Positions 51,347 through 63,230 of a stretch of 64,000 nucleotides of DNA are shown one piece after another. The notes below the pieces were generated by a model. That model was not told the DNA's origin. It searched no databases and was given only the letters and a program-made list of their open reading frames with translations. Within the stretch, counting starts at the first letter, position 1; each line of letters starts with the position of its first letter. Source of the stretch: a virus; the IMG/VR virus record IMGVR_UViG_3300035698_016797, positions 117,031-181,030 of that record. One strand, given 5' to 3'. A program made the position numbers and the translations under genes.

Positions 51347-51802
51347 TTATTTACTCTCCTCTGCGCTTGCGGTTTCTTGTGACAATTTTTCCATTGATTC
51401 AATTAAAACCTCGTATTCTTTTTTGATGGTTTCTAGGGCTTTTCCGAAATCTGGCCTGTCGTCATCTCCAACACCACGCTTTGCGTATGCTTGAAGCATT
51501 TTCAAATTACAGTCTGCATGATCCAAATGATGAAGGCCACTTTCGCTATCAAAATCTTCTCCCATGAACCAATATAGCATATGTCTAAGCATGGCTGCAA
51601 ACGGCCTTGTCCAACGCATTCCTTTTTCCCAGTTGCGAGCACTATATTTTACGGCTCCATATGTGAAAACCATTGCAGTTCCAATTAGAGCGTCCCACGG
51701 CATCAAATCTAACCTTGGCTTGCCATTGTCAAATTTGGCGGCAGTTTTACCTCCAATTTTATATGAGTCTCCGTCAACTTTTATTGCTTTTTCTTTTACC
51801 AT
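51347..51802 (-). CDS. dATP/dGTP diphosphohydrolase domain protein, DUF5664-like (start ATG 51802)
   Basis: KFDNGKPRLDLMP...FTYGAVKYSARNWEKG...RH...GEDFDSESGLHHLDHA. Confidence 0.85.
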   Translation of the reverse strand: MVKEKAIKVDGDSYKIGGKTAAKFDNGKPRLDLMPWDALIGTAMVFTYGAVKYSARNWEKGMRWTRPFAAMLRHMLYWFMGEDFDSESGLHHLDHADCNLKMLQAYAKRGVGDDDRPDFGKALETIKKEYEVLIESMEKLSQETASAEESK

Positions 51803-51823
51803 CGTCACTTCCTTTCTAATCAT

Positions 51824-51851
51824 ATAATAGCACCTATTTATATAAATGCAA
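51824..51851 (-). promoter_or_regulatory. Leftward sigma70-type promoter
   Basis: Minus strand TTGCAT-N16-TATTAT with TG one base upstream of the -10 box (extended -10). Confidence 0.55.
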
Positions 51852-51869
51852 CTTTTTTCTGAACAAAAT

Positions 51870-51898
51870 TTGACTTTTCTCAACATATGCAGTATACT
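51870..51898 (+). promoter_or_regulatory. Rightward sigma70-type promoter for tRNA block 1
   Basis: TTGACT (51870-51875)-N17-TATACT (51893-51898). Confidence 0.8.
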
Positions 51899-51919: not shown

Positions 51920-52000
51920 ATGAAAAACTTATATATCAACTTATCCTCACTCAGTTTGTACTGCCTGTATTTTTCGGGCAGTCGTAAGGAGGACTTGTAG
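51920..52000 (+). CDS. Leader peptide 1 (26 aa, MKNLYINLSSLSLYCLYFSGSRKEDL), putative attenuator
   Basis: SD AAAGGAG; lies between a promoter and a terminator; 12 consecutive Leu/Ser/Tyr/Cys/Phe codons. Confidence 0.8.
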   Translation: MKNLYINLSSLSLYCLYFSGSRKEDL

Positions 52001-52030: not shown

Positions 52031-52061
52031 AAACCCCTCCTTAACTGGATGGGGTTTTTTT
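52031..52061 (+). terminator. Intrinsic terminator/attenuator 1
   Basis: AAACCCCTCC-TTAACT-GGATGGGG followed by 7 T; its 5' arm can instead pair with TAAGGAGG (51985-51992). Confidence 0.8.
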
Positions 52062-52068
52062 ATGTATT

Positions 52069-52163
52069 GGAAAGGTGGCTGAGTCTGGATTAAGGCGGTG
52101 CTCTTGAAAAGCATTGAGCGGCGGTAACGTCCTCCGTGGGTTCAAATCCCACCCTTTCCGCCA
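52069..52163 (+). tRNA. trnS: tRNA-Ser(TGA)
   Basis: Cloverleaf, loop CTTGAAA, long variable arm, G73, encoded CCA. Confidence 0.92.
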
Positions 52164-52168
52164 ACAAT

Positions 52169-52301
52169 GGATTGGTAAGTAATTGGCAGCTGTCCTGTGG
52201 GTAGTACTGAAAGCTGAAGGCTAATGGGTGATTGAAGGCCGCACCCCAGCAGAAGAACAATACAAGCCTTAGACGTTCGGGTTCGAATCCCGACCAATCC
52301 T
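52169..52301 (+). ncRNA. tRNA-like structured RNA (133 nt) with no canonical anticodon arm
   Basis: Acceptor GGATTGG/CCAATCC, D-arm AGT-AATTGGCA-GCT, T-arm TCGGG-TTCGAAT-CCCGA; about 85 nt between the D and T arms; no encoded CCA. Confidence 0.65.
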
Positions 52302-52308
52302 ACAATGA

Positions 52309-52393
52309 GGGTGTGTTGGACAGGTGGTGAGTCCAGTAGACTGTAAATCTACCGCAATAAGCTTTGGAGGTTCGATTCCTTCCATGCCCACCA
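52309..52393 (+). tRNA. trnY: tRNA-Tyr(GTA)
   Basis: Loop CTGTAAA, long variable arm, CCA. Confidence 0.92.
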
Positions 52394-52405: not shown

Positions 52406-52425
52406 AGCTCATTGAAAATTGAAAA
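52406..52425 (+). promoter_or_regulatory. boxA-like antitermination element, copy 1
   Basis: AGCTCATTGAAAATTGAAAA; 17/20 identical to 56530-56549; resembles rrn boxA TGCTCTTTAACAATT. Confidence 0.55.
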
Positions 52426-52449
52426 GTGTCTGATATAGTTAGAACAGAT

Positions 52450-54432: not shown

Positions 54433-55545
54433 ATGAATTTATCAGAACCAAGCAATATATGTATTAAACCATGGTATGATCAAACCATAGATATGTCTGG
54501 GTGCTGGAGTTGTTGTGGAAACGTCAAAGACAGTGGAGCTATATTTTACGATGAGGATTGGAAAGGTCCATATGTTGGAGATGTTGATCACTGGAATAGT
54601 CCAGAAATGCAGAAATTTAGGAAGGATATGCTAGAAGGAGGAGCCAGCATTGCCTGCGGTATGGCAAAGTGTCCACAAAGATATCGTTCTGCATCAATAG
54701 GAGATAGAATTTTAGAGTTGAAACAAGGTTATAACATCAAAGATGAAAAGTCAAAATCTCAAATAGCAGAAGCCATAGAGAACAATAGACTTATTCTCGA
54801 TTACTCTGCTAAAAAAATTACATACATAGTTACAATGGCTTGTAATTCAAAATGTGCATATTGTTTTCAGATAAGCAAAAGAAAAGATGGTAGTCTAAAT
54901 CCTCCAGAAGGGTATGAAGATCATATTATACCAATTTTGACGAGTGCTAAAGCGGTAAGACTTGCTGGAGGAGAGGTGTTCGTACTTTCAGATAAAAAGT
55001 TGGATAAGTTTTTTGGACACAAAGATTGGGAAAATGTAGAACATGTGTGTGTTGTTACAAATGGAACACTATTGACGCCTGAAAGATATGAAAAATATGC
55101 AGCTAATGGCCCACTTAGCAACATTGAAATTAGTCTAAACACAATGAGCGCAGAAGAGATGTTGAATGAAACAGAAGATATGCTGTTCAAATGCGAAGAT
55201 AACATGAGGGGAATATATGAAAAATATCCAGACCACTGTGTTACAACGTTGAACGTTGCCATGTCTATAAATATCATAGACAGAATTGACGAAGTATTAG
55301 AGTTTGTAAAAAAGTATGGAATAAAAGAGATATTGATTCATCATATAAATGGAACAGTAATGGAATTGAGCGGTGTTGGACATCTTAATCCATACTGTAA
55401 AGAAGGCTATTCAGAAGAAGTTCACGAAAGACTTTTAAAGGTGGTTGATGTTGCGAAACAATTTACAAAAGAGAATGGAATCGGCCTAAGATATAGTACC
55501 ATTCCAATGTCCCTGGGAGAAATGAAGAAAGAGATGGCACAGTAG
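54433..55545 (+). CDS. Radical SAM protein with N-terminal SPASM-like domain (370 aa), paralog of 37196-38311
   Basis: CNSKCAYC, AGGEV, TNG, ISLNT; N-terminal CIKPW...CC...WKGPYVGD shared with the first copy. Confidence 0.8.
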   Translation: MNLSEPSNICIKPWYDQTIDMSGCWSCCGNVKDSGAIFYDEDWKGPYVGDVDHWNSPEMQKFRKDMLEGGASIACGMAKCPQRYRSASIGDRILELKQGYNIKDEKSKSQIAEAIENNRLILDYSAKKITYIVTMACNSKCAYCFQISKRKDGSLNPPEGYEDHIIPILTSAKAVRLAGGEVFVLSDKKLDKFFGHKDWENVEHVCVVTNGTLLTPERYEKYAANGPLSNIEISLNTMSAEEMLNETEDMLFKCEDNMRGIYEKYPDHCVTTLNVAMSINIIDRIDEVLEFVKKYGIKEILIHHINGTVMELSGVGHLNPYCKEGYSEEVHERLLKVVDVAKQFTKENGIGLRYSTIPMSLGEMKKEMAQ

Positions 55546-55609
55546 TCAAGTGGTAAGACGCTGGTCTGCAAAACCAGTTACGTGGGTTCGATTCCCACCT
55601 GTGTCTCCA
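55536..55609 (+). tRNA. trnC: tRNA-Cys(GCA)
   Basis: Loop CTGCAAA, U73, CCA; its first 10 nt overlap the radical SAM stop. Confidence 0.92.
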
Positions 55610-55623
55610 CAGAAAGGCTTACA

Positions 55624-56058
55624 ATGAAAATTAAGAACTTTTCAGGGCACTACGGATTCCTAAGCAATTTCTATGTTGAAAAAAATGGAAAGACGGCAGA
55701 GCATTATTTTCAAGCTTCCAAAACTCATGATAGAAAGTGGCAAGATCTCGTTAAGCTTCAGCATTCTCCAGAGGCTGCAAAAAAGTTTGGTAGATCGTTG
55801 CCTCTAAGAAAAGATTGGCAAAGTGTAAAAGTTGAGATAATGAGAATCGTTTTGGAACGTAAGTTTTCAGATCCAGAACTAAAACAAAAGCTTTTGGAAA
55901 CTGGAAATAGAGAATTAGTAGAAGGAAATACATGGCATGATAATTTCTGGGGAGATTGCAAATGTCACAAGTGCAGACATATTAAGGGTCGAAACGTATT
56001 AGGTATCTTGCTCATGAAAGTAAGGGATATGTTGAGATCTTTCGAAGAAGCAGAGTAG
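55624..56058 (+). CDS. NADAR (YbiA-like) family protein (start ATG 55624)
   Basis: FLSNFY...AEHYFQASK...AKKFGR...MRIVLERKF...LLETGNRELVEGNTWHDNFWG...GRNVLGILLMKVR. Confidence 0.9.
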   Translation: MKIKNFSGHYGFLSNFYVEKNGKTAEHYFQASKTHDRKWQDLVKLQHSPEAAKKFGRSLPLRKDWQSVKVEIMRIVLERKFSDPELKQKLLETGNRELVEGNTWHDNFWGDCKCHKCRHIKGRNVLGILLMKVRDMLRSFEEAE

Positions 56059-56150
56059 GAGAGGTGCCAGAGTGGTTTATCGGGACAGTTTGCTAAACTG
56101 TTGGATCATGAGATGTGGTTCCCAGGGTTCGAATCCCTGTCTCTCCGCCA
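56058..56150 (+). tRNA. trnS: tRNA-Ser(GCT)
   Basis: Loop TTGCTAA, long variable arm, G73, CCA. Confidence 0.9.
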
Positions 56151-56177
56151 ACAAACGTAAAAAAAGTTTCAAAAAGC

Positions 56178-56207
56178 TTGACATAGTTCTTAATACAGGT
56201 ATAGTAT
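56178..56207 (+). promoter_or_regulatory. Sigma70-type promoter for tRNA-fMet and block 2
   Basis: TTGACA (56178-56183)-N16-TATAGT, or N18-TAGTAT; A-tracts upstream. Confidence 0.75.
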
Positions 56208-56221
56208 AGGTAGATTTAGAT

Positions 56222-56300
56222 TGCGGAATGGAGAAGTCCGGCTTAACTCGCTTCGCTCATAACGAAGAGACCGTGGGTTCAAATCCCACTTCCGCTACCA
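56222..56300 (+). tRNA. trnM: tRNA-Met(CAT), initiator-like
   Basis: Loop CTCATAA; U1.U72 mismatch and A11-U24 pair as in fMet tRNAs; lacks the three G-C anticodon-stem pairs. Confidence 0.8.
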
Positions 56301-56316
56301 TTAAGGAAAACAGCAA

Positions 56317-56391
56317 ATGATTAGTTCAATTAGAAAATGGCGCAATAACGGTACAGGAAAAACGGGGGACTACTGCGCCTTGACCCCCTAG
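56317..56391 (+). CDS. Leader peptide 2 (24 aa, MISSIRKWRNNGTGKTGDYCALTP), putative attenuator
   Basis: SD AAGGA; lies ahead of a strong terminator; 13 consecutive Ile/Arg/Lys/Trp/Asn/Gly/Thr codons. Confidence 0.8.
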   Translation: MISSIRKWRNNGTGKTGDYCALTP

Positions 56392-56415
56392 TTGATCATT
56401 CATTTGATTATATAC

Positions 56416-56448
56416 AAGACGAGGCGCTTAGGTGCCTCGTCTTTTTTT
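56416..56448 (+). terminator. Intrinsic terminator/attenuator 2
   Basis: AAGACGAGGCGC-TTAG-GTGCCTCGTCTT plus T-tract; its 5' arm can instead pair with GCGCCTTG (56375-56382). Confidence 0.85.
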
Positions 56449-56450
56449 AT

Positions 56451-56524
56451 GCGACTGTAGCATAGTGGTAATGCGCTGGACTTCCACTCCAGTCAGGAGG
56501 GTTCGATTCCCTCTAGTCGCTCCA
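56451..56524 (+). tRNA. trnG: tRNA-Gly(TCC)
   Basis: Loop CTTCCAC, U73, CCA. Confidence 0.92.
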
Positions 56525-56529
56525 GAAAA

Positions 56530-56549
56530 AGCTCCTTGACAATTGAATA
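56530..56549 (+). promoter_or_regulatory. boxA-like antitermination element, copy 2
   Basis: AGCTCCTTGACAATTGAATA; GCTCCTTGACAATT matches E. coli rrn boxA GCTCTTTAACAATT at 12/14. Confidence 0.6.
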
Positions 56550-56563
56550 AGATGGTGTAGAGT

Positions 56564-56641
56564 AGGTGAGTAGCTCAATTAGGCTAGAGCAGCGGTCTCC
56601 AAAACCGCAGGTTGCAGGTTCGATTCCTGTCTCACCTGCCA
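56564..56641 (+). tRNA. trnW: tRNA-Trp(CCA)
   Basis: Loop CTCCAAA, G73, CCA. Confidence 0.92.
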
Positions 56642-56656
56642 AACAAGGGTAACAAA

Positions 56657-56908
56657 ATGAATAAAGCAGCAATATTAGCAGCATACGACGATGATCAAGC
56701 AGAAATTTTAGCAGCATATGTCAACGTAGCATTAAGAGCAGATGAAGTGATAGAGTTCATAAAAAGAAAATATGGCGTTACTAGCGAAGATGGTTTTACA
56801 TGTATGTATATACTGAGACTGTCACAGGCACTAGATAGGCTGAAGGCAACAACAGGAGGACTTAACGATGGACAAGCCGATGAAGATGTATATTCTAGTG
56901 AAGAATGA
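56657..56908 (+). CDS. Hypothetical protein (83 aa; start ATG 56657)
   Basis: SD AAGGG; MNKAAILAAY... Confidence 0.5.
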   Translation: MNKAAILAAYDDDQAEILAAYVNVALRADEVIEFIKRKYGVTSEDGFTCMYILRLSQALDRLKATTGGLNDGQADEDVYSSEE

Positions 56909-57197
56909 TGTTGACTTAGGACATGCAATGTTGGCAGTTGCACATGGTGTGGCAGCTTGTATGAGACAATACAAGGATGATGAAGATTTGAATGAATGGC
57001 TTCTCGACTCCTTTAGGAAGGTTGTTTGCAAGGTTAACCAAAAAGAGTTTGATGCCGCAAAAACCCTTCTTGAAAAAAGAGTTATCATGACAGAGTGTGC
57101 GTTAGACAATCAGGAAACTGCCATTGTCTTTTGTCCGCGCAAAGAGTGGCCAAAACCGTTTAGTTGGTATAAGCTATATAGAACACAGAAAGATTAA
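56868..57197 (+). CDS. Peptidyl-tRNA hydrolase, Pth2 family
   Basis: KMYILVKNDVDLGHAMLAVAH...W...RKVVCKV...ETAIVFCP. Confidence 0.8.
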   Translation: MDKPMKMYILVKNDVDLGHAMLAVAHGVAACMRQYKDDEDLNEWLLDSFRKVVCKVNQKEFDAAKTLLEKRVIMTECALDNQETAIVFCPRKEWPKPFSWYKLYRTQKD

Positions 57198-61131: not shown

Positions 61132-61668
61132 ATGGAATATCTAAGATCGGAAAAAGAATACATCTATTTGAATTACGTATGTGAAAGAGTAGAGTCCTAT
61201 TTTCCAGAAGCACAAACAATGCTTGATGTAGGTAGTAATACCGGCCTTTATCTGAAAAGGTTCGAATGGATTCCAAGTGTGACAGCTATAGATATCTTAA
61301 CAGTACCAAGCTTTGATTTTGTCAACGGAATCAAGGCAAACTTTCTTGAGCATGACTTTGAAGGTCAGTCTTTTGAAGTAGTAACGTGTCTGCAAATGCT
61401 TGAACACGTAAAAAATCCAAGAGACTTTTTTGTTAAGATGGTTGAGTTGACAAAAGGAGTTTTGATAGTATCTTTACCATACAAGTGGAGTGCAGACAGT
61501 ATTGCAGACCACATTCACGATCCAATTGACGACAAGAAGATGATGGATTGGTTTGGAGCTTTCCCCACACACTGTTGTACCATTACGGAGCCGGAAAATA
61601 GAGGTATTAGAGTGATATGCCTATTCAGATTCTACGACGAAAAGCAGAAAGAGAGATATTATGGCTAA
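61132..61668 (+). CDS. Class I SAM-dependent methyltransferase (178 aa)
   Basis: MLDVGSNTG...AID...FEVVTCLQMLEHV. Confidence 0.8.
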   Translation: MEYLRSEKEYIYLNYVCERVESYFPEAQTMLDVGSNTGLYLKRFEWIPSVTAIDILTVPSFDFVNGIKANFLEHDFEGQSFEVVTCLQMLEHVKNPRDFFVKMVELTKGVLIVSLPYKWSADSIADHIHDPIDDKKMMDWFGAFPTHCCTITEPENRGIRVICLFRFYDEKQKERYYG

Positions 61669-61960
61669 TGCAATTGTGATCAGCAGGTTTGGAAAACTTC
61701 TGGGAGTTTTTACTCAAAAACAAAAGGCATGGCAATCTATACAGGAATGTGAAGAGGAAGAAGACTTGGAGAAGATTCTTGTGATGGTTGATTCCAGACC
61801 AACAGCAAGAGAGGAAGTTGTTCCATTAACATATGCAAAGCTATGCAAGCAGTTGTCTGAAATGGGTCGTGCAGACATAAGGTCTGTTACAAAGCTTGAA
61901 CCGGCTCAAATTAGATATGGACTATGGCAAGTTGAAATTAATGTCCCAGTAGCTCAGTAG
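61661..61960 (+). CDS. Hypothetical protein (99 aa)
   Basis: Overlaps the upstream stop; its own stop lies in the tRNA-Arg(TCT) D-loop. Confidence 0.55.
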   Translation: MANAIVISRFGKLLGVFTQKQKAWQSIQECEEEEDLEKILVMVDSRPTAREEVVPLTYAKLCKQLSEMGRADIRSVTKLEPAQIRYGLWQVEINVPVAQ

Positions 61961-61976
61961 ATAGAGCAACTGACTT

Positions 61977-62582
61977 TAACTAAAAAGGAGCGTTCTATGT
62001 GGAAGATTGAGAAGATTGTTAGCAAGGGCGATTACGATTACGCTGTTGTTTTCAAACATCCCACAGCAACCAAACACGGGTATGTATTGGAACATCGGAT
62101 AGTAATAGAGAATAGTCTGGGTAGGCTTCTCAATCCAAATGAAGTTGTTCATCATAAAAACGGTGATCGAAAAGACAATCGCTTAGAAAATCTTAAAGTA
62201 ATGAAACGTAAAGAACATTGTTCTAAACATGGATTGAAACAAGGCAGGTTATGGGTAGTATTAAAATGCCCTGAATGCGCTAAGATTTTCGAGAAACCAA
62301 AGAATAAATCCTTTCTTCAACAGGGCACGAGTTACACAACTTGTTCACCACAATGTAGAGGAAGATTTTCTAGAAAGATGCAACTTCAAGGAATAACCAT
62401 AGAACTGGAGAGGGCTATATCGGGGAATCTCGTAAGTAAGTATAGGAAATACTCCACGACAATCCCGAGCAAACCATTAACAATGGGATGCGTAGAGGCC
62501 ATACGCCCTCAGTCTGGAATGGCTAAGAGATGGTCCAGCCAGCAAGCTTGAAAAAGTGGTTATGGAAACATGATGCTGGAAG
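61977..62582 (+). mobile_element. Group I intron (606 nt) inserted after U34
   Basis: 5' exon ends in U and the intron ends in G. P1 CUU/GAG; P3 GAGGGC (62410-62415)/GCCCTC (62505-62510); P7 GGCCAT/ATGGTC; Q-like AATCCCGAGC; R-like AGAGGCCATAC; S-like AAGAGATGGTCC. Confidence 0.85.
61997..62551 (+). CDS. Intron-encoded HNH homing endonuclease (184 aa)
   Basis: LEHRIVIE..LGRLL...EVVHHKNGDRKDNRLENL, then CPEC...CSPQC; the 3' part reads through the intron core. Confidence 0.9.
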   Translation: MWKIEKIVSKGDYDYAVVFKHPTATKHGYVLEHRIVIENSLGRLLNPNEVVHHKNGDRKDNRLENLKVMKRKEHCSKHGLKQGRLWVVLKCPECAKIFEKPKNKSFLQQGTSYTTCSPQCRGRFSRKMQLQGITIELERAISGNLVSKYRKYSTTIPSKPLTMGCVEAIRPQSGMAKRWSSQQA

Positions 62583-62639
62583 CTAATCAGTAGGTCGTAG
62601 GTGCAAATCCTACCTGGGACACCAACTAGAAAGAACAAT

Positions 62640-63230
62640 ATGACACATTCAGATTTTGGACAAGACGTATATATCAGAGACAGATTCTTCCGTGGATCAA
62701 AGTCTGGGTGCTGTTTGGAGGCTGGTGCTCAAGATGGAGAATCCCACAGCAACACTCTTTTGTTTGAAGAGGAGCATGAGTGGGATAGAATTTTGATAGA
62801 GCCAGATCCAAAACACATGCAAGTTTTGAAGACAAGAAAGAATGGTAGAAAGTATTGTGCACCCCTGTGGGATGTAACCGGCGATACTGTGGTAATGAAC
62901 GACATCAATAAGAACGGATGGACCCACATAGATAAATATGGTCCTAAGAATGTAGAGATTGTCCACCAGTGGAATGCTGTCACAATCGGGATTAACGATG
63001 TGTTGCCACAATATACAGACTTGGTATCGCTGGACACAGAAGGATCAGAGCATGTAATTGTTGGAGCAATAGACTTTAGTAGATTCAAAATTGCAGTGTT
63101 CCTCATTGAAGCAAAGGAGTCAAGAGAATATATTGGTAAAATCCTCAAAAGAGAAGGGTATATATTCTACAATACAATCAAGCATGACGTAATCTATTAT
63201 GATCCAAAACTGATACAGCCGAAAGGATAG
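62640..63230 (+). CDS. FkbM-family methyltransferase (start ATG 62640)
   Basis: GQDVYI...LEAGAQDGESHSNT...ILIEP...VSLDTEGSE. Confidence 0.8.
   Translation: MTHSDFGQDVYIRDRFFRGSKSGCCLEAGAQDGESHSNTLLFEEEHEWDRILIEPDPKHMQVLKTRKNGRKYCAPLWDVTGDTVVMNDINKNGWTHIDKYGPKNVEIVHQWNAVTIGINDVLPQYTDLVSLDTEGSEHVIVGAIDFSRFKIAVFLIEAKESREYIGKILKREGYIFYNTIKHDVIYYDPKLIQPKG

What the first reader, a model, noticed from the sequence alone, without database searches (positions are those of the whole stretch)
52169..52304. tRNA-mimic ncRNA: intact acceptor, D and T arms, with an ~85-nt structured domain replacing the anticodon arm
It sits 5 nt after tRNA-Ser and 7 nt before tRNA-Tyr, so it is probably processed with them. 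It has a 7-bp acceptor, a D-loop with GG and a canonical T-arm; the discriminator is U and CCA is not encoded (ACA follows). The insert holds a hairpin GGGTG/CACCC whose loop AAGGC could pair with GCCTT (52266-52270) as a pseudoknot; an upstream AAGGCT is an alternative partner. It also holds a short frame GCA GAA GAA CAA TAC AAG CCT TAG (AEEQYKP*, 52249-52272). That is reminiscent of a miniature tmRNA with a non-degron tag, but the G3.U70 alanine determinant is absent (A3-U70). Alternatives are a decoy for tRNA-targeting defence proteins, a Y-RNA-like molecule, or a tRNA with a novel insertion.
Basis: partly seen in the sequence, partly recalled or inferred. Interest (0 to 1): 0.72.

Follow-up and report, generated by a model that had tools for sequence, protein, structure and literature searches.

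The report
Orphan tRNA-shaped RNA in phage array
Between two ordinary tRNA genes, a 181-kb salt-lake phage carries a 133-base gene with the top half of a tRNA but no usable anticodon arm. It is most likely cut out like a tRNA but cannot decode. It is not a mini-tmRNA, and I found no relative that could show whether it is still in use.

Summary
The anatomy is real. At 52169-52301 there is a perfect 7-bp acceptor stem, a canonical T arm, a D loop with GG, discriminator U and no CCA. It lies 5 nt after tRNA-Ser(UGA) and 7 nt before tRNA-Tyr. That combination occurs 0.025 times per random window. The sequence is identical in three other assemblies.

ARAGORN (default) and Rfam miss it. None of 2555 single excisions restores a tRNA, so it is not an intron-bearing tRNA.

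The "structured" insert folds no better than shuffled sequence (z +0.0 to +0.6).

The mini-tmRNA idea fails. There is no G3-U70 and no tmRNA model match. The phage has its own 426-nt tmRNA (116 bits).

The acceptor stem is the neighbouring tRNA-Ser(UGA) stem with two pairs flipped, followed by the same ACAATG trailer. It is probably an old tandem copy of that gene.

Pattern and BLAST searches of phage, virus, metagenome and genome collections found no homolog.

Best reading (about 50%): a non-decoding tRNA-shaped RNA released by tRNA-processing enzymes, like T4 RNA C. Main rival (about 33%): a decaying tRNA relic.

This scan has noted other, unrelated giant-armed tRNA-like RNAs in other phages.

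The parts
51870..51898 (+). Promoter-like site (TTGACT-17-TATACT) upstream of the Ser-X-Tyr unit
   Evidence: Consensus scan, 10 of 12 matches. Function not tested.
51920..52000 (+). 26-codon leader ORF rich in Leu/Tyr/Ser/Cys/Phe codons (context only)
   Evidence: Read from the sequence. Earlier notes e1-5773145/e1-5773144 read it as an attenuator leader. I did not test that.
52034..52061 (+). Terminator-like hairpin CCCC..GGGG plus a T run, just before tRNA-Ser (context only)
   Evidence: Read from the sequence. The consensus scan did not list it.
52069..52163 (+). tRNA-Ser(UGA), CCA encoded; probable parent of the element
   Evidence: ARAGORN and Rfam, 51.7 bits. Its acceptor GGAAAGG differs from the element's only at pairs 4-69 and 5-68.
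52164..52168 (+). 5-nt spacer ACAAT; U at -1 of the predicted RNase P site
   Evidence: Sequence.
52169..52175 (+). Acceptor stem, 5' strand GGATTGG
   Evidence: 7/7 Watson-Crick pairs with 52294-52300.
52176..52191 (+). U8, A9 and the D arm: stem AGT (52178-52180) / GCT (52189-52191), loop AATTGGCA (52181-52188) with G18 G19 equivalents
   Evidence: Sequence. The CM R1 alignment places it on the D arm. The stem is only 3 bp. Adding it to the model structure changes the energy from -27.0 to -28.1 kcal/mol.
52192..52216 (+). 25-nt stretch with no convincing fold, where an anticodon arm should begin; holds CTGAAAG
   Evidence: 18-nt core: MFE 0 kcal/mol. Only weak G-U-rich hairpins with 7-nt loops are possible.
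52217..52270 (+). 54-nt irregular arm: outer helix AAGGCT/AGCCTT (52217-52222 / 52265-52270), inner hairpin GGGTG/CACCC (52226-52230 / 52242-52246) with 11-nt loop ATTGAAGGCCG, and an 18-nt unpaired purine-rich strand (52247-52264)
   Evidence: MFE and centroid folds. z = +0.02 against shuffles, so not more stable than chance. The loop holds TTGAA, the same as nt 33-37 of the tRNA-Ser(UGA) anticodon loop.
52271..52276 (+). 6-nt connector AGACGT, the length of a class I variable loop
   Evidence: Sequence.
52277..52293 (+). T arm TCGGG-TTCGAAT-CCCGA
   Evidence: Sequence; motif scan; repeat family D1 shared with the true tRNAs.
52294..52300 (+). Acceptor stem, 3' strand CCAATCC
52301..52301 (+). 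Discriminator U; no CCA follows
   Evidence: Sequence. All 32 array tRNAs of the phage encode CCA.
52302..52308 (+). 7-nt trailer ACAATGA; ACAATG also follows the CCA of tRNA-Ser(UGA)
52309..52393 (+). tRNA-Tyr(GUA), CCA encoded
   Evidence: ARAGORN and Rfam.

Best explanation
The element is a tRNA-derived gene that no longer encodes a decoding tRNA. It most likely arose as a tandem copy of the adjacent tRNA-Ser(UGA). It kept the half of a tRNA that the processing enzymes read: the 7-bp acceptor stem, the T arm and the D-loop/T-loop elbow. The anticodon-arm region was replaced by about 85 nt of loosely folded sequence.

Inferred mechanism: it is transcribed with tRNA-Ser and tRNA-Tyr from the promoter at about 51870. 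RNase P cuts at G52169. RNase Z, or exonucleases working back from the RNase P cut of tRNA-Tyr, trim to U52301. The host CCA-adding enzyme may then add CCA. The product is a 133-136-nt tRNA-shaped RNA that cannot read a codon.

Such an RNA can only act through what it binds, that is, as a mimic or sponge for a tRNA-binding factor. Which factor is unknown.

Shown: the anatomy, its non-randomness, the absence of an anticodon arm and of any restoring excision, the link to tRNA-Ser, and the absence of CCA. Inferred: transcription, processing, stability and any function.
For: - The acceptor is 7/7 Watson-Crick, the T arm 5/5 with loop TTCGAAT, and the D loop has A14, R15, GG and A21 equivalents.
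- This combination occurs 0.025 times per random window.
- It sits in the exact slot of a tRNA gene: 5-nt and 7-nt spacers, U at -1, and a trailer ACAATG like that after tRNA-Ser CCA. ACAA trailers also follow tRNA-Leu(TAG) and tRNA-Ser(GCT).
- The acceptor is the neighbour tRNA-Ser(UGA) stem with pairs 4-69 and 5-68 flipped on both strands. Only the three tRNA-Ser share the GGA start among 32 tRNAs. The helix stayed paired through divergence while the middle changed beyond recognition.
- It is not a decoding tRNA. ARAGORN default and Rfam RF00005 are silent. 0 of 2555 single deletions give a tRNA call. There is no 5-bp stem with a 7-nt loop and U33.
- Precedent: T4 RNA C is 139 nt, lies in the T4 tRNA cluster, has a T arm CCGGG-TTCGAAT-CCCGG and a terminal helix, and has no CCA. 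It is expressed, and its role is unknown (PMC3014915, PMC9697503).
- Conserved, covarying tRNA-shaped RNAs of 123-152 nt are common in viral contigs. In 52 of 118 pattern hits the acceptor pairs 7/7. In family A, 24 of 39 pairs show compensatory changes.
- The sequence is identical in four assemblies.
Against: - No homolog was found, so there is no conservation or covariation for the element itself.
- The insert is no more stable than shuffled sequence. Conserved long tRNA-like RNAs mostly reach z about -1.8 to -2.5, and T4 RNA C reaches -4.6.
- It is the only one of 33 tRNA-type genes in the arrays without CCA, and the phage has no CCA-adding enzyme.
- The D stem is weak.
- Near-repeats (CTGAAAG, CTGAAGG, TTGAAGG) look like slippage in unconstrained sequence.
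- There are no expression data.
Confidence: 0.5

Rival explanations
1. Decaying relic: a duplicated tRNA-Ser gene that lost its anticodon arm and CCA through slippage and indels. It is still excised as a harmless by-product because the minihelix happens to be intact, and it has no function of its own.
For: - No homolog in any collection searched.
- The insert folds like random sequence.
- CCA is missing, against 32 of 32 tRNAs that encode it.
- The D stem is weakened and one nucleotide is missing.
- There are short imperfect repeats in the insert.
- The acceptor and trailer resemble the neighbouring tRNA-Ser.
Against: - All 12 helix pairs of the acceptor and T arm, and the T loop, are perfect, while the middle is beyond alignment. 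Two acceptor pairs changed on both strands.
- Large phage genomes usually shed dead DNA.
- The element keeps exact tRNA-like spacing in a tight three-gene unit.
Confidence: 0.33
2. A working but unorthodox tRNA: either an intron-containing tRNA spliced to a normal cloverleaf, or a decoder that uses the TTGAA-bearing loop of the long arm as an anticodon (UGA, serine).
For: - ARAGORN at a 90% threshold proposes Cys(ACA) with a 59-nt intron.
- The 11-nt apical loop holds TTGAA, as in nt 33-37 of tRNA-Ser(UGA).
- Lak phages have 'enigmatic' tRNA introns (PMC6784885).
Against: - 0 of 2555 excisions give a default ARAGORN tRNA, and the near-threshold calls disagree on the anticodon.
- The proposed stem has a U-U and a G-U pair, and an ACA anticodon is not used by bacteria.
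- The insert is far too short for a group I core, and there is no Rfam intron match.
- The phage has no splicing endonuclease or RtcB.
- The phage already has tRNAs for all 20 amino acids.
- An 11-nt loop on a 54-nt arm cannot reach the decoding centre in tRNA geometry (established tRNA dimensions; inference).
Confidence: 0.07
3. Seryl-acceptor or tRNA-Ser decoy: after CCA addition the RNA is recognised by SerRS, which ignores the anticodon, or by a factor that reads the tRNA-Ser(UGA) anticodon loop (nuclease or modification enzyme), and it titrates that factor.
For: - G1-C72, G2-C71 and A3-U70 are as in the three phage tRNA-Ser only.
- It has a long extra arm.
- There are three UGAARG motifs resembling the Ser(UGA) loop.
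- That SerRS uses the acceptor stem and the long arm, not the anticodon, is my recollection of the E. coli work, not a test.
Against: - The discriminator is U, not the G of tRNA-Ser.
- The arm is followed by 6 nt, unlike class II variable arms.
- The motif count is not significant after allowing for motif choice.
- Nothing was tested.
Confidence: 0.08
4. Miniature tmRNA that tags stalled peptides with AEEQYKP.
For: - Acceptor and T arm with a weak D stem.
- A GCA-initiated 7-codon frame ending in TAG.
Against: - A3-U70 instead of G3-U70.
- No tmRNA match by Rfam or ARAGORN.
- No helix 2 or pseudoknot 1.
- The tag lacks a hydrophobic end.
- At 133 nt it is far below any tmRNA I know of.
- The phage has a canonical 426-nt tmRNA (116 bits, G3-U70, tag ending AFAIAA) and no SmpB.
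Confidence: 0.02

Closest known systems
T4 RNA C (species 1 RNA, rnaC) of the T4 tRNA cluster
   Same: Lies in a phage tRNA cluster a few nucleotides from its neighbours. About 135-140 nt. Canonical T arm (GGGTTCGAATCCC) next to a terminal helix formed by the 5' and 3' ends. No encoded CCA. No anticodon arm. Role unknown (PMC3014915, PMC9697503).
   Different: No sequence homology beyond the generic T arm. RNA C's terminal helix has two U-U mismatches, while this one is perfect. RNA C is strongly folded (z -4.6), while this insert is not (z about 0). RNA C is known to be expressed.
Giant-armed tRNA-like RNAs of phage tRNA arrays (uncatalogued; family A found here, loop CYGUCUC, 74-82-nt arm)
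   Same: tRNA body with a large extra domain, missed by tRNA finders, no CCA. Three family A loci sit 4 nt after tRNA-Ser(UGA), as this element does (5 nt). A short shared string, AAGG-N-TAATGGGT, follows the 5' strand of the arm helix.
   Different: Family A has a true anticodon arm and a covarying arm (24 of 39 pairs compensatory). Its model gives this element 22.1 bits from the skeleton only and skips the arm. I do not count the element as a member.
tRNAs with 'enigmatic introns' in Lak megaphages (Devoto et al. 2019, PMC6784885)
   Same: Over-long phage tRNA genes with inserts of unknown purpose that bacterial tRNA finders cannot classify.
   Different: Those were resolved into a tRNA plus an excisable insert. 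Here no excision restores a tRNA.
tmRNA tRNA-like domain
   Same: Acceptor stem plus T arm with a reduced D region and no anticodon arm.
   Different: No G3-U70, no helix 2, no pseudoknots, no degron tag, about a third of the size. The phage has a real tmRNA elsewhere.
Bacterial tRNA-Ser (class II), here the adjacent tRNA-Ser(UGA)
   Same: Acceptor pairs 1-72, 2-71, 3-70, 6-67 and 7-66 are identical. Same trailer ACAATG. TTGAA of the anticodon loop recurs in the apical loop.
   Different: No anticodon arm. Discriminator U instead of G. No CCA. D loop of another type.
YrlA / bacterial Y RNAs
   Same: A tRNA-like module with T arm, D arm and acceptor-like helix that does not decode.
   Different: In YrlA the RNA ends lie in the Ro-binding stem and the acceptor helix is closed by a loop. 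An arrangement of that kind is seen in L077. Here the ends are in the acceptor stem. No Rfam match.

Membership tests
Decoding tRNA (Rfam RF00005) | 7-bp acceptor stem with discriminator | tested here: met
   GGATTGG/CCAATCC, 7/7 Watson-Crick, discriminator U.
Decoding tRNA (Rfam RF00005) | 5-bp T stem with loop TTCRANY | tested here: met
   TCGGG-TTCGAAT-CCCGA.
Decoding tRNA (Rfam RF00005) | D arm with G18 G19 | tested here: inconclusive
   The loop AATTGGCA is canonical. The stem is only 3 bp including one G-U, and the 8-13 segment is one nucleotide short.
Decoding tRNA (Rfam RF00005) | Anticodon arm: 5-bp stem, 7-nt loop, U33, purine 37 | tested here: not met
   Enumeration of hairpins finds only G-U-rich or overlapping candidates without U33. 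0 of 2555 deletions restore a tRNA.
Decoding tRNA (Rfam RF00005) | Model score at or above threshold | tested here: not met
   No RF00005 match at gathering score, or at E up to 10. ARAGORN default is silent.
tmRNA (Rfam RF00023) | G3-U70 alanine determinant | tested here: not met
   A3-U70. The phage's true tmRNA has G3-U70.
tmRNA (Rfam RF00023) | Match to tmRNA covariance or heuristic models | tested here: not met
   Only a 9.5-bit T-arm fragment match. ARAGORN -m found none even at 80% threshold. Positive control: the phage tmRNA scores 116 bits.
tmRNA (Rfam RF00023) | Helix 2, pseudoknot 1 and a tag frame ending in a hydrophobic degron | tested here: not met
   No long helix joins the D region to the pre-T region. 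The frame would give AEEQYKP.
Intron-containing tRNA (group I or protein-spliced) | Excision of one segment restores a cloverleaf | tested here: not met
   0 of 2555 excisions at default. At relaxed thresholds the anticodons are inconsistent.
Intron-containing tRNA (group I or protein-spliced) | Ribozyme core, or a splicing endonuclease and ligase, available | tested here: not met
   No Rfam intron match. No tRNA_int_endo or RtcB in the phage. An Rnl-type RNA ligase is present. Host enzymes are unknown.
T4 RNA C-type small RNA of tRNA clusters | Encoded within a phage tRNA cluster, with tRNA-like terminal helix and T arm, no anticodon arm, no CCA | tested here: met
T4 RNA C-type small RNA of tRNA clusters | Sequence or structure homology to rnaC | tested here: not met
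   The pairwise alignment shares only the T arm and scattered bases.
T4 RNA C-type small RNA of tRNA clusters | Accumulates as a stable processed RNA | not testable with these tools
   No expression data for this uncultured phage.
Giant-armed tRNA-like RNA, family A (uncatalogued) | Match of the extra arm to the family model | tested here: not met
   CM R1 gives 22.1 bits, below most true tRNAs of the window. 66 arm positions were skipped.
Giant-armed tRNA-like RNA, family A (uncatalogued) | Anticodon-type arm with loop CYGUCUC | tested here: not met
   Absent.
YrlA / Y RNA | Termini in a Ro-binding stem, acceptor-like helix closed by a loop | tested here: not met
   The termini lie in the acceptor stem. 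No Rfam match.

The most novel reading that the evidence does not exclude
The element is a purpose-built, anticodon-less derivative of tRNA-Ser(UGA). It keeps the serine-type acceptor pairs (G1-C72, G2-C71, A3-U70) and a long arm that displays Ser(UGA)-loop-like UGAARG motifs. It is made together with the tRNAs it sits among. It acts either as a non-decoding seryl acceptor or as a decoy that draws off a host factor aimed at tRNA-Ser, such as an anticodon nuclease, a modification enzyme or SerRS itself.
Probability: 0.1. Interest if true: 0.7.

Novelty: new member of a known kind. Interest (0 to 1): 0.36.

Why it matters
If it is made and stable, it is one more case of phages using the tRNA-processing machinery to release small RNAs that are not tRNAs. 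That habit has been known since T4 RNA C and is still unexplained after fifty years.

The search for relatives also showed how common long tRNA-shaped genes are in viral contigs, and that standard tRNA finders miss many of them. Annotation pipelines therefore undercount a whole layer of phage RNA genes.

For this element alone the value is limited. It is an orphan, its insert is not visibly structured, and a relic cannot be excluded.

Tried and rejected
- **Rfam:** gathering thresholds, and E up to 10 on the locus. Nothing for the element.
- **ARAGORN:** tRNA, intron and tmRNA modes. There was only a weak Cys(ACA)+intron call at 90% threshold, rejected for its poor stems.
- **Exhaustive single deletions:** no tRNA.
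- **BLAST against 50,697 phage records:** only the flanking tRNAs match. The megablast of the upstream 8.4 kb found nothing.
- **Synteny route:** the radical SAM and PF18909 neighbours have only self-copies or unrelated phages. The DnaE-type polymerase is at most 37% identical to any GenBank phage, and a scan of IMG/VR viral contigs with the DnaE fragment found no relative.
- **Pattern scans:**
  - The T arm plus acceptor 22-mer found nothing.
  - D loop...T loop found many other long tRNA-like genes but none with this insert.
  - A candidate-specific D loop pattern in viral and metagenome contigs found mostly tandem tRNA-Gln/Glu genes.
  - The 5' 20-22-mer in genomes found tRNA-Gln genes and two chance matches that read as the start of an ORF on the other strand, and nothing in viral contigs.
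- **L149/L171:** they looked similar at both ends, but the 5' match is in another register (a tRNA-Gln-like half). Rejected.
- **Antisense targets of the insert in the phage genome:** no more than chance.
- **TRF:** no tandem repeat call.
- **Family A model:** no arm homology.
- **Class II reading:** the idea that the D loop marks a tRNA-Leu (class II) body was weakened, because tRNA-Gln genes carry the same loop.

Full report
**What is there**

The window is the last 64 kb of a 181,030-bp virus record with direct terminal repeats. From 52069 onward it carries 19 tRNA genes interspersed with small ORFs.

The finding lies between tRNA-Ser(UGA) (52069-52163) and tRNA-Tyr(GUA) (52309-52393).
- GGATTGG (52169-52175) pairs 7/7 with CCAATCC (52294-52300).
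- TCGGG-TTCGAAT-CCCGA (52277-52293) is a textbook T arm.
- The D loop AATTGGCA has the A14, R15, G18 G19 and A21 equivalents.
- The discriminator is U (52301) and ACA follows, not CCA.
- The spacers are 5 and 7 nt.

A strict test asked for a T-arm motif plus an all-Watson-Crick 7-bp partner 40-170 nt upstream. It finds six sites in the window, five called tRNAs and this element. It finds 0.025 per random window.

The same 136 nt are present without a single change in three other assemblies (L010, L272, L273). So this is a real sequence, but one clonal population that gives no polymorphism data.

**What it is not: an ordinary or spliced tRNA**

- ARAGORN at default and Rfam RF00005 do not call it, even at E up to 10.
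- At a 90% threshold ARAGORN offers Cys(ACA) with a 59-nt intron. That model has a U-U and a G-U pair in the anticodon stem and a poor D stem.
- I removed every segment of 30-99 nt in turn (2555 constructs). None gave a default ARAGORN tRNA, and the near-threshold calls disagree on the anticodon.
- An enumeration of hairpins finds no 5-bp stem with a 7-nt loop and U33.
- The insert is too short for a group I core and has no Rfam intron match.
- The phage has no splicing endonuclease or RtcB. It does have an Rnl-type RNA ligase.
- The phage's 32 array tRNAs already cover all twenty amino acids.

**What it is not: a mini-tmRNA**

- Pair 3-70 is A-U.
- Rfam and ARAGORN tmRNA models are silent.
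- There is no helix 2 or pseudoknot 1, and the frame would give AEEQYKP.
- A T-arm scan of the whole genome turned up a canonical tmRNA at genome 26043-26468. It scores 116 bits against a gathering score of 47, has G3-U70, and its tag ends AFAIAA.
- The phage has no SmpB and no CCA-adding enzyme.

**Is the insert a structured domain?**

The sequence does not show that it is. The whole element has z = -0.47 against dinucleotide shuffles. The 85-nt insert, its 66-nt part and the 54-nt arm have z = +0.57, +0.42 and +0.02. The stretch where an anticodon arm should start (52193-52210) does not fold at all.

For comparison, T4 RNA C has z = -4.6. The conserved long tRNA-like RNAs I found mostly have z of about -1.8 to -2.5.

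The best fold is an irregular 54-nt arm:
- outer helix AAGGCT/AGCCTT;
- inner hairpin GGGTG/CACCC with an 11-nt loop;
- an 18-nt unpaired purine-rich strand.

It is followed by 6 nt and then the T arm. That spacing fits the anticodon-arm position of a class I tRNA better than a class II variable arm. Without covariation or probing the two cannot be told apart.

**Origin**

- Among the 32 tRNAs of the phage, only the three tRNA-Ser start GGA.
- The element's acceptor stem is that of the adjacent tRNA-Ser(UGA) (GGAAAGG/CCTTTCC) with pairs 4-69 and 5-68 flipped on both strands.
- The trailer ACAATG after the discriminator is the trailer that follows the CCA of that tRNA-Ser.
- The apical loop of the arm holds TTGAA, identical to nt 33-37 of the Ser(UGA) anticodon loop. 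UGAARG occurs three times. After allowing for motif choice this count is only suggestive.

I read the element as an old tandem copy of tRNA-Ser(UGA).

The asymmetry matters. All 12 helix pairs of the acceptor/T minihelix and the T loop are intact, and two pairs are compensated. The middle has changed beyond alignment. That argues for selection on the part read by RNase P, RNase Z and the CCA-adding enzyme (established substrate requirements; inference).

Against this, it is the only tRNA-type gene of the arrays without CCA, and the D stem is down to 3 bp.

**Search for relatives**

The phage is an orphan.
- Its radical SAM and PF18909 genes have only self-copies or unrelated carriers.
- Its DnaE-type polymerase is at most 37% identical to any GenBank phage.
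- Peptide-pattern scans of IMG/VR found no relative.
- BLAST of the locus against phage records matched only the flanking tRNAs.
- Pattern scans of viral, metagenome and genome collections found no element with this insert.

**Context found on the way**

I scanned viral contigs for AATTGGCAG, a gap of 75-105 nt, then GGTTCGAATCC. This gave at least 118 loci. In 52 of them the flanking heptamers pair 7/7, which marks tRNA-shaped genes of 123-152 nt (41 distinct sequences).

One family (A, 18 sequences) has a full cloverleaf with loop CYGUCUC and a 74-82-nt arm. In it, 24 of 39 predicted pairs show compensatory changes. Earlier notes of this scan had found the same family in other genomes.

Three of its loci sit 4 nt after tRNA-Ser(UGA), as this element does at 5 nt. 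A short string, AAGG-N-TAATGGGT, is shared.

A covariance model of family A gives the element only 22.1 bits from the tRNA skeleton and skips the arm. True tRNA-Leu genes score 44-56 bits. I therefore do not count the element as a member.

**Closest published analogues**

- T4 RNA C is 139 nt, lies in the T4 tRNA cluster, and has a T arm and a terminal helix but no CCA. It is expressed late and has no known role (PMC3014915, PMC9697503).
- The over-long tRNAs with 'enigmatic introns' of Lak megaphages are the other analogue (PMC6784885).

**Verdict**

The 'structured domain' and the tmRNA analogy are not supported.

| Reading | Confidence |
|---|---|
| Non-decoding tRNA-shaped RNA, derived from tRNA-Ser(UGA), released by the tRNA-processing enzymes, acting if at all by binding a tRNA-directed factor | 0.50 |
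| Decaying relic that is still excised | 0.33 |
| Serine-type acceptor or decoy | 0.08 |
| Unorthodox decoder or intron-bearing tRNA | 0.07 |
| Mini-tmRNA | 0.02 |

Transcription, processing and function are all inferred. Expression data or a related genome would decide between the first two readings.

Noticed in passing
Outside the window: genome 26043-26468 (L002:244-669, + strand): The phage encodes a full-length tmRNA (Rfam RF00023, 116 bits; G3-U70; tag reading frame ending ...AFAIAA). ARAGORN did not call it. No SmpB gene was found in the phage.
   Followed up: partly
L027, L028, L032, L039, L044, L052, L054, L074, L081, L087, L089, L101, L110, L112, L119, L123, L127, L129 (alignment A3): A family of 141-149-nt tRNA-shaped RNAs in viral contigs. 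It has a Leu-type D arm, anticodon-type loop CYGUCUC (GUC with U37), a 74-82-nt covarying extra arm (24 of 39 pairs compensatory), discriminator G and no CCA. The arm tip carries self-complementary strings (GCGCGC, GCTAGC, TGCATGCA, GCCGGCCGGC), which might allow loop-loop dimers. The Rfam tRNA model at gathering did not call the four members I scanned, and ARAGORN did not call the twelve I scanned.
   Followed up: partly
L023:5446-5582 (-), with L036, L037, L050, L056, L060, L067, L124, L130, L132: A second family of about 137-nt tRNA-shaped genes (acceptor GCCGTTA/GCCGTCA). It has a normal D arm, an anticodon-type arm whose loop varies between GAGTTAA and CATTTAA, and a region of about 68 nt before the T arm. 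Rfam tRNA scores it 43.8 bits.
   Followed up: no
L077:6600-7200 (- strand): Tandem units in which a T arm and a 3' acceptor strand are followed by a 2-3-nt loop, the matching 5' acceptor strand and a D arm (for example CGCACC-TTC-GGGTGCG). The acceptor helix is closed by a loop, as in YrlA-type Y RNAs.
   Followed up: no
Outside the window: genome 72699-74351 and 70144-72504 (- strand; L006): The DnaE-type DNA polymerase (PHROG 405) is split into two adjacent ORFs of 550 and 786 aa that match profile positions 36-336 and 337-1053.
   Followed up: no
51347-51886 (- strand): The gene next to the array is a dATP/dGTP diphosphohydrolase-type protein (Pfam PF18909 on its homologues; PHROG 801). 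Homologues sit in unrelated phages, in one case between Acb2/Tad1-like and Tad2-like genes (L014).
   Followed up: partly
52412-52439 (+ strand): A promoter-like site (TTGAAA-16-TATAGT with an extended TG) lies between tRNA-Tyr and tRNA-Leu(CAA). Ser-X-Tyr may therefore be a separate short transcription unit.
   Followed up: no
54433-57197 and 61132-63230 (+ strand): Protein genes interleaved with the tRNAs include a radical SAM enzyme, a NADAR domain protein, a PTH2 peptidyl-tRNA hydrolase, two methyltransferases and an HNH endonuclease. An Rnl-type RNA ligase (PF09414) lies at genome 52201-53274.
   Followed up: partly
Trailers after 52163, 52301, 53155 and 56150: ACAA begins the 3' trailer of tRNA-Ser(UGA), the element, tRNA-Leu(TAG) and tRNA-Ser(GCT). 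It may be a shared processing signal, or a trace of duplication.
   Followed up: no
L149:1331-1457 and L171:1570-1696: In a metagenomic tRNA array, a tRNA-Gln-like 5' half is followed by about 35 nt and then a tRNA-Ala(UGC)-like body. The 3' acceptor strand of that body matches neither 5' strand well. It is another rearranged tRNA locus.
   Followed up: partly
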